NCBI GenBank assembly: GCA_965221165.1 | Contig: CBDCRP010000002.1 | Coordinates: forward strand, 384,001-448,000 | Direction: 5' to 3' | Origin: a bacterium | Lineage (GTDB): Bacteria > UBA8248 | DNA length: 64,000 nt | In this document: one piece after another, positions 26,849-39,083 of the stretch | Layout: each line of letters begins with the position of its first letter | Numbering within the stretch: the stretch's first letter is position 1 | Translations under genes and position numbers: made by a program | The notes under the pieces: generated by a model | The model's input: only the letters and a program-made list of their open reading frames with translations | The model's database searches: none | What the model was told of the DNA's origin: nothing

Positions 26849-27376
26849 TTGAACTGGACGATGCAGGGGCGTTGCTGGAAATTCGGAGATAATCTTTCTC
26901 TCGATGACGACATCCTCGAATTCGCCAAAGTCTTCGTGCAGGGGGTGCGCGTCTCGGACCCCGCATACTTGAAGAAGCACGTTTTCACGAATCTGATTCC
27001 CGATTTCCCGGAACGCGTGAAGCCGGGCGACGTCGTGGTGGCGGGGAAACGATTCGGCCAGGGAAATCCGCACATATACGGTCTCCTCGGAATGGCGGGC
27101 CTGGGTGTCGGCCTGATTGCCGAGAGCGTTCCCCATTTCACCTACCGGATGATCGTGGCGGCGGGGCTTCCCGCACTCCCTTTCTTCGCCGACATCGGCT
27201 CGCACGTGGAGGATGGGGATGAGGTGCGCGTTGATTTCGAAACCGGAGAAGTCGAGAATCTGAGCCGCGGCGTTCAATGCGCATCGGAACCGTTGCCGGG
27301 TGCGCTGAGAGAGATCATCGAAATCGGCGGTTTTCTGCCCGCCCTCAAGAAACGCCTGGAAACGTCTCTTTCATAA
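26849..27376 (+). CDS. Aconitase-family hydratase small subunit (LeuD/HacB-like, divergent)
   Basis: GRCWKFGDNL, PGDVVVAGKRFG, IAES, GDEVRVDFETG, GG at C-terminus. Confidence 0.83.
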   Translation: MNWTMQGRCWKFGDNLSLDDDILEFAKVFVQGVRVSDPAYLKKHVFTNLIPDFPERVKPGDVVVAGKRFGQGNPHIYGLLGMAGLGVGLIAESVPHFTYRMIVAAGLPALPFFADIGSHVEDGDEVRVDFETGEVENLSRGVQCASEPLPGALREIIEIGGFLPALKKRLETSLS

Positions 27377-27444
27377 AACGGCGACGCGAAGAGTTGGCCT
27401 CGCGCGTTTTTCGGAGCGAATGCGGAGTCAAACCCAATCGAAGA

Positions 27445-27868
27445 GGGGTTGTTGAAAAACCCCCTCAAGGGGAAAATGCCTGCGGCGCATTCGCCGCCCC
27501 GGCGCGTAATACCTCTCTCGTCGGTCGGCAAACAAATCCTCGCTCCTCACTCGGATTTGACATTCCTCACTCGCGTTTGATCCGCGACGTATTCGCCGCC
27601 CTGGCGGCGAATACCTCCCTCATCCCGAGTAGGCGCGCTCGCGCGCCGTATCGAGGGTTTGACCCTACCGAGGAGGGAGGGTCAAACGGGGCCCTTCGAT
27701 ACAAGCGCTCCTTTCTCAGTCGCGTTTGACCTTCGGCGGCTACTCAGGGTGAGGTCGATACGGCGGCATGCAAGACGAGGGCTTGACGCGACCGATGAGG
27801 TCAGTTCCGACTGAGAAAGGAGGAACTGCATTTGCGCTCGCTCCCAGGACCGGGTTTTCAACAACCCC
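27445..27868. mobile_element. Putative non-autonomous MITE (424 bp)
   Basis: Perfect 14-bp terminal inverted repeats GGGGTTGTTGAAAA (27445-27458) / TTTTCAACAACCCC (27855-27868), flanked by direct repeat GAAGA (27440-27444 and 27869-27873); no transposase ORF. Confidence 0.75.
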
Positions 27869-27890
27869 GAAGAAGGAGGGGTTGCCTGTC

Positions 27891-28367
27891 GTAGGGGCGG
27901 ACCTGCGTGTCCGCCCGCTTGCGCATCCGCCCGTAGGGGCCGCATATATGCGACCCGACCGATGAGCGGCGGGTGTTTTCTTTAAGGGCCGCATATATGC
28001 GGCCCCTACGGGCGTCCGACGCTTGATATTTCTGGATTCCGCATTTCCTCCCTCCCCGGTCGGGATTCACCACCGTCATTCCGGCGCATGCCAGTGGCAA
28101 CCGTAAGGTTGACCAGAACCGATGAGATGGATATATCGCGGCGTTTCGTTCCTTCTTTGATCAAGCGGGAACAACGCCGGAAAACGAAAGGCGAAAGACA
28201 AATTCTCTGGATTCCGGCATGCGCCGGAATGACGGCAATCTTCAATTCGGCCTATGGCGGATTCAGAAACCGTAGGGACAGGTCGCGACCTGTCCCTACA
28301 AGATGTCCCCCCATCGTATGAATCTTGCTCCCTGGCGTCGAGGGCGGACACATAGGTCCACCCCTAC
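27891..28367. repeat. Cluster of GTAG- and CGTC-type REP palindromes
   Basis: GTAGGGGCGGACCTGCGTGTCCGCCC 27891-27916 with inverted partner 28342-28367; inverted pair 27933-27956/27986-28009; CCGTCATTCCGGCGCATGCC...GGCATGCGCCGGAATGACGG 28073-28235; perfect palindrome GTAGGGACAGGTCGCGACCTGTCCCTAC 28272-28299. Confidence 0.88.
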
Positions 28368-28403
28368 GAAAGATCAATCCCTCCTTCCTCAGTCGGGATT
28401 GAT

Positions 28404-29621
28404 CTACAACTCGATCACGTCCATCGCGTCGGGAGTCAGGATCCGCGGGCCGTTCTCCTCCACGATCACCTGGGGGCCGAAGACGATGAACATCCTGTCC
28501 TCATACGCGGCCTTCACCTCGACGGCGAGGGACATGCTCTCCTCGACCTCGAAATCCTCCAGAAAACCGTAGAGATCGCCCGCGAGTTCGCGCCATTCGG
28601 GGTTTTCAGACAGGCTTCCTTCCACGAAGGGCTCGCGCCACGAGGAATTTCTGGGAATATCGCCCGCGCATATCGTCGTCATGAGCGGCTCGATGCCGTC
28701 GATTCCCACCCCGTGCACCTGGGGGATCTCATGGTAGTAACCGCTCCTGAGCACCGCTTCGCGCAGGGGCCCATATTCCTCATCCATCGGCCCAATCGAC
28801 ATCGAGGTGTGCGGATGGCTCCAGTAGCCCCCGTAGCGCGCGTAATAGCCGATGCACAGCATGTCGCCTGTCCGCAGAATCCTGTCCGTAGGTCTTCTGT
28901 TCACCGGATATCCCTTCCCCGAGCAGAGGATGAGCCAGCTATCGCGGCCCGGCTCCGCGCCCGCGCGCAGGCTCGCGCTGAAAAGCTCCGCGTATACCTC
29001 GCTCTCCCGCACCCCGGGGCGGCAGCAGCCGAGCACGGCGTCTATCTCGACGTTCACCATCTCGGCCGCTTTTTCGAGCATCGCGATCTCCTCAGGACTC
29101 TTTATCATGCGAAGGCGCGTGAGGATGTCCGAAGCATCGGCGAACTCCGCATCCGGCAGAAGCCTTTTGAGGTTTTGGTACGTCATGTAGGGAATCGCAC
29201 CCTCGGCGCCGTACCCCCCGCCTATGAGGCCGACGATTCCGATTCTCCCGCTCTCGTAGCCCAACTCCTTGATGGCGTCGGTGGCCACGATGCTCACCTT
29301 CTCTTCGTGCCCCCGGTAGCGCACCCCCTCGAAGCACGATTCGGTGTACCACTTGCCCCAGTTCTGGAGGAGCCAGAAGGTGACGGGCGCTCCTTTTCTG
29401 GGAAACACCATGCTGCGCTCCCCGTAATCGCCTCCGTCGAGCCAGCGGGTGTTGCCGTTGCCGTTCGAGCCGCGCCCGATGACGATGAGGCAATCGAGCC
29501 CGCGCTCATCCATGGCGGCGCGAACCGCGTTCCACCGCCTGTCGCGCTCATCGGTGGAAAAAGAAGCCGCCGCGTCGCCCGTGCGGCCGTCTTTCGGGAA
29601 AAACCCGGGGTCCGTTACCAT
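28404..29621 (-). CDS. M24 (Xaa-Pro peptidase/creatinase) family protein
   Basis: ERDRRWNAVRAAMDERGLDCL N-domain, LRMIKSPEEI, RPGVRE, HGVG; ATG 29621 with AGGAG RBS. Confidence 0.8.
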   Translation of the reverse strand: MVTDPGFFPKDGRTGDAAASFSTDERDRRWNAVRAAMDERGLDCLIVIGRGSNGNGNTRWLDGGDYGERSMVFPRKGAPVTFWLLQNWGKWYTESCFEGVRYRGHEEKVSIVATDAIKELGYESGRIGIVGLIGGGYGAEGAIPYMTYQNLKRLLPDAEFADASDILTRLRMIKSPEEIAMLEKAAEMVNVEIDAVLGCCRPGVRESEVYAELFSASLRAGAEPGRDSWLILCSGKGYPVNRRPTDRILRTGDMLCIGYYARYGGYWSHPHTSMSIGPMDEEYGPLREAVLRSGYYHEIPQVHGVGIDGIEPLMTTICAGDIPRNSSWREPFVEGSLSENPEWRELAGDLYGFLEDFEVEESMSLAVEVKAAYEDRMFIVFGPQVIVEENGPRILTPDAMDVIEL

Positions 29622-38700: not shown

Positions 38701-39083
38701 GGCTTCCCTATCTCATCAGTCGGAATTGACCCGTAGGGGCGGCCCCTCCCCAGGACCGCCCCACAGGCCTGTGTGTCCGCCCGCCTCCGTGTACCCCTCC
38801 CCAGACAACCCCTCCCTGCCCGGCCGGGAATGAAATACCACCGTGTCCTCGTCCTCATCGGCTCTGGATTCCGCATGAAGGCATTGCGGAATGACGATCA
38901 GAGGCGGGATCGACCACCGCATCTCCCCGCATTTGCCGTAGCCGTGAAATTTTGGGTTCGGATATGGTGCGCGCGCGTGGCAACGCCACAAGCCCTCCTC
39001 GGGGCGGGGTGACCCTAAAGGATGGTCAATCCCTCTCTCCCTGGTCGGAATTGACCCTCCTTCTTCAGTCGGGTTTGATCCCC
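38701..39083. repeat. Second intergenic repeat cluster (REP remnants plus 13-nt-loop hairpins)
   Basis: Interrupted GTAGGGGCGG...GTGTCCGCCC REP at 38733-38782, CGTC-type GGATTCCGCA...TGCGGAATGACG near 38866-38896, tandem hairpins 39024-39080. Confidence 0.75.

What the first reader, a model, noticed from the sequence alone, without database searches (positions are those of the whole stretch)
27427..28405. Family of hairpins with a fixed 13-nt purine-rich loop and different self-complementary stems
Seen (loop written on the purine-rich strand): CAAATCC-GAGTGAGGAGCGA-GGATTTG (27533-27559, -); GTTTGACCC-TACCGAGGAGGGA-GGGTCAAAC (27657-27687, +); CAAACGC-GACTGAGAAAGGA-GCGCTTG (27702-27728, -); CAGTTCC-GACTGAGAAAGGA-GGAACTG (27802-27828, +); AGATCAATCCC-GACTGAGGAAGGA-GGGATTGATCT (28371-28405, -). 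Weaker copies have loops at 27514-27526 (GACCGACGAGAGA) and 28049-28061 (GACCGGGGAGGGA), and one copy is split by the MITE. Loop consensus is about GACYGRNGARRGA; stems change in sequence yet stay paired, and copies lie on both strands, several inside other repeats. Inference: a short mobile or templated DNA cassette, or an ssDNA protein-recognition hairpin, that is distinct from GTAG/CGTC REPs. I do not recognise it as described, and no cognate enzyme is in this window. This is my best candidate for an undescribed system.
Basis: partly seen in the sequence, partly recalled or inferred. Interest (0 to 1): 0.8.

Follow-up and report, generated by a model that had tools for sequence, protein, structure and literature searches.

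The report
REP-like hairpin repeats with a fixed cap
The hairpins are real members of an abundant family of tiny intergenic DNA repeats found in one genus of Nitrospinota bacteria, best read as an undescribed variant of the known REP class of small mobile hairpins, not a new kind of system.

Summary
All five hairpins are at the stated coordinates. The genome (3.69 Mb) has about 125-150 copies. Perfect 7-bp stems around a 13-nt GA...GA loop with two inner pairs occur 117 times. Other loop lengths give 3-12, and six order-3 Markov genomes give 6-17.

The "loop" is itself folded. It has a tandem G.A/A.G, two covarying pairs and a 5-nt tip. The unit is about 34 nt: a G-rich head ending in GTC, the hairpin, then a C.

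By my own gene calls, 121 of 124 copies are intergenic, and they favour gaps between convergent genes. The family is abundant in 16 of the 22 other genomes of the genus and absent from 19 genomes of sister genera. Most copies are not shared at orthologous sites with a relative about 90% identical. New copies sit inside older ones.

I read it as a REP-like, single-strand hairpin element. Three RAYT-like transposase genes lie outside the window, but they are flanked by GTAG-type REPs, so the mobilising enzyme is unresolved. The scan had not found this family before on other DNA.

The parts
27533..27559 (-). Full hairpin: arms CAAATCC/GGATTTG, cap GAGTGAGGAGCGA, tag TGTC.
   Evidence: Sequence. 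Model R1 gives 42.8 bits (C2:411525-411567). Its inner pairs are G-C and T.G, the covarying form of the cap.
27560..27583 (-). 5' half-unit (tag GATC, arm CAAACGC, cap cut short) that runs straight into the head of the copy at 27533-27559.
   Evidence: Sequence. Other copies of the composite repeat keep a complete hairpin here (alignment).
27510..27532 (-). Weak copy: cap GACCGACGAGAGA with a 4-bp stem only.
   Evidence: C2 - 411514. It is part of a repeated 41-nt block, family D2.
27657..27687 (+). Variant hairpin: 10-bp stem, 1x1 mismatch, 2 bp and a GAGGA tip.
   Evidence: DNA fold of -12.8 kcal/mol, z -6.2. It is conserved in 6 of 7 aligned copies of the composite repeat. Model R1 did not list it.
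27702..27728 (-). Full hairpin with one A.C mismatch: arms CAAACGC/GCGCTTG.
   Evidence: R1 gives 43.7 bits.
27783..27800 (+). Remnant of an older hairpin (arm TTGACGC plus the first 11 nt of its cap), interrupted by the next element.
   Evidence: Copy C2:686515 of the same composite repeat has the intact hairpin TTGACGC-cap-GCGTCAA. Four copies, including this one, carry the inserted element.
27801..27829 (+). Full hairpin nested in the older cap. It begins TC directly after GAGG and ends with C.
   Evidence: R1 gives 44.8 bits. DNA fold of -6.2 kcal/mol.
28034..28076 (-). Degenerate copy: cap GACCGGGGAGGGA with arms no longer pairing.
   Evidence: R1 gives 32.9 bits (C2:412034-412076). Stem is 2 bp.
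28371..28405 (-). Full hairpin placed 2 nt after the TAG stop of the gene at 28404-29621(-). The stem is extended to 11 bp by flank bases.
   Evidence: R1 gives 46.3 bits. DNA fold of -10.6 kcal/mol, z -4.3. One relative has a diverged hairpin at the same place and two closer ones have none.
39019..39070 (-). Further family member outside the finding: a 5' half-unit followed by a full unit.
   Evidence: R1 gives 32.6 bits (C2:423019-423061). The cap at 39058-39070 appears.
27424..27781 (.). Context: a mosaic composite repeat of about 350 nt that carries several of the hairpins.
   Evidence: Seven or more partial or full copies in the genome. Many copies in three relatives.
28073..28235 (.).
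   Evidence: 20-nt perfect inverted arms (I7). Tag CGTC, 8-bp stem starting AT, 4-nt loop and tail CCA, matching the CGTC family description. Multi-copy in relatives.

Best explanation
The hairpins belong to a genus-restricted family of about 34-nt REP-like repeats.

Each unit has three parts:
- a G-rich head ending in GTC;
- a 7-bp stem whose sequence is free but must pair;
- a fixed 13-nt cap that folds into a tandem G.A/A.G, two Watson-Crick pairs and a 5-nt tip (G-R-N-R-A).

My reading is that this is a non-autonomous element acting as a single-stranded DNA hairpin. An enzyme reads the cap and the head, and the stem only has to hold the cap in place. Copies are pasted directly 3' of a run of G. 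That run is often just after a stop codon or inside the cap of an older copy. Tandem arrays then grow by repeating cap-plus-arm units.

Shown here: the structure, the strand that folds, the restriction to intergenic DNA, turnover between species and nested insertion.

Inferred: the single-strand DNA intermediate and the cut-and-paste or copy step.

The likeliest enzyme is one of the RAYT-like HUH tyrosine transposases encoded elsewhere in the genome, acting in trans. That link is weak; I put it at about one chance in four.
For: Chance is excluded.

Structure:
- On 60 copies, 96.3% of cells pair and 8 of 9 pairs show double changes; 0 of 500 shuffles reach the observed covariation score.
- RNAalifold predicts the same fold unaided.
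- On 101 copies chosen without regard to the inner positions, pair 3-11 is C-G 78, G-C 13, G-T 1 and other 9. Pair 4-10 is C-G 46, T-A 42, T-G 11 and other 2.
- Folding strand: G.T 35 against A.C 13, binomial p 0.002.

Discrete unit: conservation runs only from -5 to +28, and flanks are unique in 117 of 124 copies.

REP-like placement: 121 of 124 copies are intergenic, against 892 of 5000 random sites. Convergent gaps hold 46 copies where 20.4 are expected, and divergent gaps 14 where 30.4 are expected.

Mobility:
- 60 to 123 copies in each of 16 of the 22 other genomes of the genus, 0-11 in the remaining six, and none in 19 genomes of sister genera.
- An exact-pattern scan of 185,579 species found 85 stretches. 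Every title I saw that names a taxon says Nitrospinota or Nitrospinaceae; 80 of the 85 rows were shown.
- Only 2 of 18 anchored relative copies and 3 of 10 anchored own copies have a family hairpin in the orthologous gap.
- Two nested insertions start TC right after GAGG or GGG.

Enzyme candidates: three RAYT-like genes match NF047646 at E 1e-19 and 70.9 bits (cutoff 80), with HUH-type and Tyr motifs visible in the translation. A RAYT-like gene is found in 15 of 16 hairpin-rich genomes of the genus, against 3 of 6 hairpin-poor ones and 5 of 19 in other genera.

From the literature: an unpaired dinucleotide pair at the loop edge is needed for E. coli RAYT cleavage (PMC3733652 discussion passage).
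Against: - The three RAYT-like genes are flanked by GTAG-type REPs, not by this hairpin. Only one has a hairpin array, about 190 nt away.
- Strong model hits lie near only 4 distinct RAYT loci among the 18 loci scanned.
- One genome has 111 hairpins and no RAYT-like hit. Five genomes of other genera have RAYT-like genes and no hairpins.
- The genomes compared are kin, so the co-occurrence counts are not independent.
- There is no overall strand bias along either replichore-sized contig: 55 plus against 69 minus. A lagging-strand single-strand mechanism would predict a bias.
- Neither nested case is a clean insertion. About 10 nt of the old copy are missing in one, and the ends are ambiguous in the other.
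- I never saw a clean empty site for a solo copy.
- Orthologous copies switch the inner pair between C-G and T-A while their flanks stay about 95% identical. This fits selection on each resident copy, or gene conversion, as well as it fits mobility.
Confidence: 0.5

Rival explanations
1. The hairpin works as RNA. It sits in 3' untranslated regions, protects the message end or binds a protein or ribosome, and selection keeps each copy folded. Copies spread by recombination.
For: - G.U-type wobbles are tolerated but A.C is not.
- The inner pair changes in a compensated way between orthologous copies.
- 17 copies start 2-7 nt (two overlap by 2 nt) after the stop codon of an open frame of at least 120 codons, always in sense.
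- Copies are enriched in convergent gaps.
- The cap plus 3' arm contains a GGAGG-like purine run.
- REPs are said to be mostly downstream of genes and plausibly transcribed (PMC3733652 abstract passage).
Against: - In gaps between same-strand genes, 26 copies are sense and 35 antisense.
- Arrays of half-units cannot fold on their own.
- Copies nest inside other copies.
- No T-run follows the hairpin.
- No Rfam family matches.
Confidence: 0.2
2. It is the recognition site of a small site-specific single-strand DNA nuclease of the Ssn type. This would parallel the CGTC-tagged NTS repeats of Neisseria, and the hairpin would act on recombination or incoming DNA, not as a transposon.
For: - The tag is xGTC next to the hairpin foot.
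- The stem starts with A:T pairs.
- The flank gives the unit an orientation.
- Genuine CGTC-type repeats lie in the same gap (I7).
- Ssn nucleases cut ssDNA at such hairpins, and their genes are flanked by them (PMC11893778 passages).
Against: - The published search motif starts HGTC-W-Y. Here the tag is GGTC in 83 of 124 copies, usually followed by AA.
- In NTS the loop identity is dispensable. Here the cap is the most conserved part.
- Three GIY-YIG hits exist in the genome. One is in a 643-aa frame. One 317-aa protein has a hairpin 180 nt upstream only. One 180-aa protein has none nearby.
Confidence: 0.1
3. Copies are made through an RNA or template-switching step, and the half-unit arrays are truncated or reiterated copies.
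For: - 15 of 18 arrays start with one full hairpin followed by 1-10 units of cap plus 3' arm plus 1-4 nt. Spacings are mostly 22 (27 cases) and 24 (11 cases).
- Some arrays mix arms of different subfamilies.
- In L067, a 24-nt unit is inserted with short shared bases at both ends.
- One reverse transcriptase gene exists.
Against: - The only RT looks like a group II intron protein: RVT_1 plus a weak maturase domain. It is not near any hairpin in my lists.
- Identical units within an array fit simple slippage.
- Arrays persist and decay at orthologous sites.
Confidence: 0.08

Closest known systems
REP elements of the GTAG-tagged superfamily, mobilised by RAYT (TnpA-REP) tyrosine transposases; the E. 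coli-type families have unpaired dinucleotides between stem and a self-pairing loop.
   Same: - Size 20-40 nt, more than 100 copies, extragenic and mostly downstream of genes.
- A short tag at one foot that is not part of the stem, and a stem of 6-9 bp.
- Non-complementary dinucleotides between the stem and an inner paired loop.
- Dimers and clusters, and wobble pairs in stems.
- RAYT-like genes in the same genome.

Sources: PMC3733652 passages and my.
   Different: - The tag is GGTC after a G-run, not GTAG. GTAG lies within 12 nt upstream in only 8 of 124 copies.
- The cap is the conserved part and the stem varies, with 31 different 5' arms in 124 copies.
- The RAYT-like genes are flanked by other, GTAG-type repeats.
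- There are one-sided arrays of half-units.
CGTC-tagged REPs (dRS3/NTS of Neisseria, RPE of Rickettsia) and their Ssn single-strand nucleases.
   Same: - An xGTC tag directly before the stem, with the first stem pairs A:T.
- A 5-nt terminal loop, if the inner helix is counted as stem.
- A short C-rich tail (C follows the 3' arm in 81 of 124 copies).
- The hairpin is read as ssDNA.

Sources.
   Different: - CGTC or TGTC tags occur in only 16 of 124 copies, and the CCA tail in 6 of 124.
- The stem is 7 bp plus a 2x2 mismatch plus 2 bp, against 8-9 bp continuous (Table 1).
- The loop is conserved here but dispensable in NTS.
- Clusters are common here but rare in the CGTC families.
- No nuclease gene is flanked by the hairpins.
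REPINs (two inverted REPs forming one long hairpin).
   Same: Six plus/minus pairs lie 43-77 nt apart, with inverted G-rich outer flanks.
   Different: - The partners have different arms in all six pairs, so no long hairpin can form.
- Only 8 of 29 neighbour pairs within 400 nt have this orientation.
- Most copies are single.

Membership tests
REP (repetitive extragenic palindrome), generic | Small (20-40 bp) palindromic repeat in high copy number. | tested here: met
   The unit is about 34 nt. There are 124 strict copies and 148 model hits. The definition comes from the PMC3733652 abstract.
REP (repetitive extragenic palindrome), generic | Extragenic, predominantly downstream of coding regions. 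| tested here: met
   121 of 124 copies are intergenic by my own gene calls. Convergent gaps hold 46 copies where 20.4 are expected.
GTAG REP superfamily | Terminal GTAG (or GYAG, GTRG and similar) tag, conserved in more than 90% of members. | tested here: not met
   GTAG lies within 12 nt upstream in 8 of 124 copies. The tag is GGTC in 83 of 124.
GTAG REP superfamily | Cognate RAYT gene flanked by the same repeats (REPtron). | tested here: not met
   The three RAYT-like genes are flanked by GTAG-type repeats of other sequence. Strong model hits lie near 4 distinct RAYT loci among the 18 loci scanned.
CGTC REP superfamily / Ssn-related motifs | CGTC (or TGTC, CCTC) tag, or HGTC-W-Y in the published search motif. 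| tested here: not met
   CGTC occurs in 2 and TGTC in 14 of 124 copies, GGTC in 83.
CGTC REP superfamily / Ssn-related motifs | 8-9 bp stem, 4-5 nt loop and a 3-nt tail, mostly CCA. | tested here: inconclusive
   The stem is 7 bp, then a G.A/A.G mismatch, then 2 bp and a 5-nt tip. The CCA tail occurs in 6 of 124 copies, and the first tail base is C in 81. Figure 2 of the paper, with the consensus sequences, is not held.
CGTC REP superfamily / Ssn-related motifs | Small GIY-YIG (Ssn) gene flanked by the repeats. | tested here: not met
   There are three PF01541 hits, and none is flanked on both sides. The CDD model cd10448 could not be searched.
REPIN | Two near-identical REPs inverted around a short spacer, folding as one long hairpin. 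| tested here: not met
   Six close plus/minus pairs exist, all with different arms.
IS200/IS605-type single-strand transposition | Insertion 3' of a fixed short target that stays next to the left end. | tested here: inconclusive
   The G-run before TC is conserved. In relatives without the hairpin, GTAGG is already present at two sites. Two nested cases start after GAGG or GGG. No clean empty site for a solo copy was found.
IS200/IS605-type single-strand transposition | Orientation bias with respect to the replication fork. | tested here: inconclusive
   No overall bias: 55 plus against 69 minus. All 17 stop-adjacent copies lie on the G-rich strand. Two such copies in a relative do not fit.
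Catalogued RNA families (Rfam 15) | Match to a curated covariance model. | tested here: not met
   The 8 matches in 27200-28600 reach only 11.3-24.6 bits, each far below its family's gathering score; the three alignments shown rest on other repeats.
Intrinsic terminator | G+C-rich hairpin followed by a T-run. | tested here: not met
   Positions +29 onward carry no information, and no T-run is present.

The most novel reading that the evidence does not exclude
The cap (tandem G.A, two pairs, 5-nt tip) is the handle of an enzyme that is neither a RAYT nor an Ssn. That enzyme would add cap-plus-arm units directionally next to an existing hairpin. The one-sided arrays that mix subfamilies, and the copies placed exactly after stop codons on one strand, would then be footprints of a new way of copying very short DNA.
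Probability: 0.15. Interest if true: 0.75.

Novelty: new variant of a known kind. Interest (0 to 1): 0.45.

Why it matters
REP-type repeats are common, but it is still unclear how they spread and what reads them.

This family inverts the usual pattern. The stem drifts freely while a small folded cap and a G-rich head stay fixed. That points directly to the part a protein must recognise, and gives a simple oligonucleotide test.

The family is young enough to differ between species about 90% identical, so turnover can be followed in metagenomes. It coexists with GTAG-type and CGTC-type repeats and three RAYT-like genes in one genome. That makes this genus a useful natural case for asking which enzyme serves which repeat.

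For annotation, the model built here marks about 4% of the intergenic DNA of these genomes. It also explains several spurious short ORFs.

Tried and rejected
- **Rfam** on 27200-28600 at E up to 10: only chance-level hits.
- **Hammerhead or K-turn reading of the cap:** the order of the parts does not fit, and position 4 is C in half the copies. The family features here are recalled, not tested.
- **Alternative pairing of the head GGTC with the cap start GACC:** when cap position 3 is G, the head G does not change (one search list), so I dropped it.
- **Pfam Y1_Tnp six-frame scan of the genome:** no hit. This was a false negative. A protein-level scan found three RAYT-like genes.
- **PDB sequence search with the RAYT-like protein:** nothing at E up to 0.01.
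- **Genes flanked on both sides by caps:** only two, an acetyltransferase-like and a small ORF.
- **IS110:** two copies. One lies between two hairpins but is inserted in a different, GTAG-type palindrome.
- **TnpB zinc-ribbon family:** none.
- **RT:** one, of group II intron type.
- **GIY-YIG:** three hits, none flanked on both sides.
- **Viral contigs:** no exact match to the pattern.
- **RNA data:** no RNA holder listed.
- **Papers:** no paper held both 'Nitrospinota' and 'repetitive extragenic palindromic', and none held all of 'Nitrospinota', 'sponge', 'repeats' and 'intergenic'.
- **Earlier notes of this scan:** none on this family.
- **Replichore test in the relative:** it has too few stop-adjacent copies (2) and no gene-strand bias to settle the strand question.
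- **First crude ORF caller:** it placed 73 of 124 copies 'inside genes'. This was an artefact of spurious ORFs, and I replaced it with a codon-trained caller.
Full report
**Where the hairpins lie.** The finding sits in a 1,027-nt gap (27377-28403) between two convergent genes, by my own gene calls. The window is C2:384001-448000 of a 3.69-Mb, three-contig genome with 59% G+C. An exact-pattern scan of one genome per species returned matches only in MAGs titled Nitrospinota, Nitrospinaceae or just 'bacterium'.

**More than chance.**
Of these, 62 have exactly 7 flanking pairs.
- 7-bp stems around any GA...GA loop number 178 at loop length 13, against 36-76 at lengths 7-20.
- When two inner pairs are also required, perfect stems number 117 at length 13, against 3-12 at lengths 9-18.
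- Six order-3 Markov genomes give 6-17.
- A feature score picks 124 clear members with 31 different 5' arms.
- A covariance model finds 148, although only 150 of 1,816 candidates were scored.

**Anatomy.**
- Information content rises only from position -5 to +28. The unit is a G-run, then T, then the 27-nt hairpin, then C.
- 117 of 124 copies have unique flanks.
- The tag is GGTC in 83 copies, TGTC in 14, AGTC in 9, GATC in 6 and CGTC in 2.
- The 13 'loop' bases are structured. G1-A2 and G12-A13 never vary, and positions 3-11 and 4-10 covary.
- On 101 copies chosen without looking at those positions, 3-11 is C-G 78, G-C 13, G-T 1 and other 9. Pair 4-10 is C-G 46, T-A 42, T-G 11 and other 2.
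- On 60 diverse copies, 96.3% of cells pair and 8 of 9 pairs show double changes. No shuffle of 500 reaches the observed covariation score, and slid partners give 35-51% pairing. Those 60 were pre-selected for pairing, so only the covariation counts as evidence there.
- RNAalifold and single-sequence DNA folding return the same fold.
- G.T outnumbers A.C by 35 to 13 (p 0.002). The purine-cap strand is therefore the one that folds, as ssDNA or RNA.

**Where copies sit.**
- With a codon-trained caller, 121 of 124 copies are intergenic, against 18% of random sites. The other three lie within 4-31 nt of an ORF end.
- Convergent gaps hold 46 copies (20.4 expected), same-strand gaps 61 (70.2) and divergent gaps 14 (30.4).
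- In same-strand gaps, 26 copies are sense and 35 antisense. Along the two large contigs there is no strand bias.
- 17 copies begin directly after the stop codon of a long open frame, in sense. All 17 are on the G-rich strand, which carries 58% of genes. In an 800-kb piece of a relative, the two such copies are on the other strand, but there the gene-strand bias is absent. I leave this unexplained.

**Arrays and nesting.**
- A relaxed cap motif occurs 246 times, 134 of them without a 5-bp stem.
- 18 runs of 2-11 caps exist. 15 start with one full hairpin followed by units of cap plus 3' arm plus 1-4 nt. Spacings are 22 (27 cases), 24 (11), 21 (5) and 29 (2).
- A few runs repeat head plus 5' arm plus cap instead.
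- Some arrays mix arms of different subfamilies.
- In a composite repeat of about 350 nt, one copy has an intact hairpin. In four others, including window 27783-27829, a new unit starting TC sits after GAGG of the old cap, and about 10 nt of the old copy are missing.
- In another species a 24-nt unit sits after GGG of an older copy.

**Distribution and turnover.**
- In 51 genomes of the phylum, the model finds 60-123 copies in 16 of the 22 other genomes of the genus. It finds 1-11 in five and none in one.
- It finds none in 19 genomes of eight sister genera, and 2 in one genome of the class.
- I compared the genome with 800 kb of a relative whose genes are about 90% identical. 18 of that relative's 37 hairpins could be anchored, and 2 had a family hairpin in the orthologous gap. 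Of my genome's 124, 10 were anchored and 3 had one.
- Shared copies can be identical, can differ by wobble-preserving changes, or can switch the inner pair between C-G and T-A while flanks stay about 95% identical. Others decay.
- The gap of the finding itself cannot be aligned between species.

**Enzymes.**
- A six-frame Pfam scan missed them, but the genome has three RAYT-like genes at C2:920037-928409.
- They match NF047646 at E 1e-19 and 70.9 bits (cutoff 80), and PF01797 at 23.9 bits. The HUH-type and Tyr motifs are split by a charged insert.
- They are flanked by GTAG-type repeats. One has a hairpin array about 190 nt away.
- RAYT-like genes occur in 15 of 16 hairpin-rich genomes, 3 of 6 hairpin-poor ones and 5 of 19 in other genera.
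- IS110, RT and GIY-YIG genes show no link, and no TnpB was found.

**Comparison with known families.**
- REP families are 20-40 bp, tagged GTAG or CGTC, extragenic, and often have unpaired dinucleotides between the stem and a pairing loop. They form dimers and clusters. I read passages, section 6 and Table 1 of PMC3733652; its figures and supplements were not seen.
- CGTC-type repeats are cut as ssDNA by Ssn nucleases (PMC11893778 passages).
- This family shares the architecture but fails both tag tests. It also reverses what is conserved: the cap is fixed and the stem is free.

**Verdict.** I file it as a new variant of the REP kind, with the mechanism only partly shown.

Noticed in passing
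G000 C2:920037-920639(+), 923530-924174(-), 927801-928409(+) (outside the window): Three paralogous RAYT-like tyrosine transposase genes lie within 8.4 kb; the second and third are 85% and 77% identical to the first. Each has a charged, low-complexity insert between the HUH-type motif and the Tyr helix. The six-frame Pfam scan missed all three.
   Followed up: partly
This is the repeat type that a 2025 paper links to Ssn single-strand nucleases. It is multi-copy in relatives.
   Followed up: partly
G000, 17 sites listed (for example window 28371-28405): All 17 hairpins that directly follow a stop codon in sense lie on the G-rich strand, and none lies on the other strand, which holds 42% of genes (p about 1e-4, noticed post hoc). 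Two such copies in a relative do not follow the rule.
   Followed up: partly
window 27424-27781, with copies at C2:686565, C2:1270682, C3:506786, C3:990074, C3:1786085, C3:1940098 and C1:20242: A mosaic composite repeat of about 350 nt is built from several hairpin units and other palindromes. Each copy has different ends, and the repeat is also multi-copy in three relatives.
   Followed up: partly
G000 C3:1620100-1621520 and C3:1254470-1255860 (approximate): Two IS110-family elements. One is inserted in a GTAG-type palindrome with a GCATATATGC core, recalling IS110 members that target REPs.
   Followed up: partly
window 27886-27916, 27928-28014, 28264-28301, 28342-28372: At least four different GTAG-tagged palindromes lie in the same 1-kb gap. 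Some GTAG repeats in relatives carry the same GAGGA tip as the cap of this family.
   Followed up: no
G000 C2 (all) and C3:150000-2050000: GC skew is negative over almost the whole of both large contigs, as if each were one replichore written on its C-rich strand.
   Followed up: partly
G000 C3:1275951-1277927(-): A single reverse transcriptase gene of 658 aa with a weak group II intron maturase domain.
   Followed up: partly
G029 (same genus by the tool's table): An 8-Mb, 70-contig genome placed in the genus has no hairpin and no RAYT-like hit. It may be a mixed or misplaced bin.
   Followed up: no
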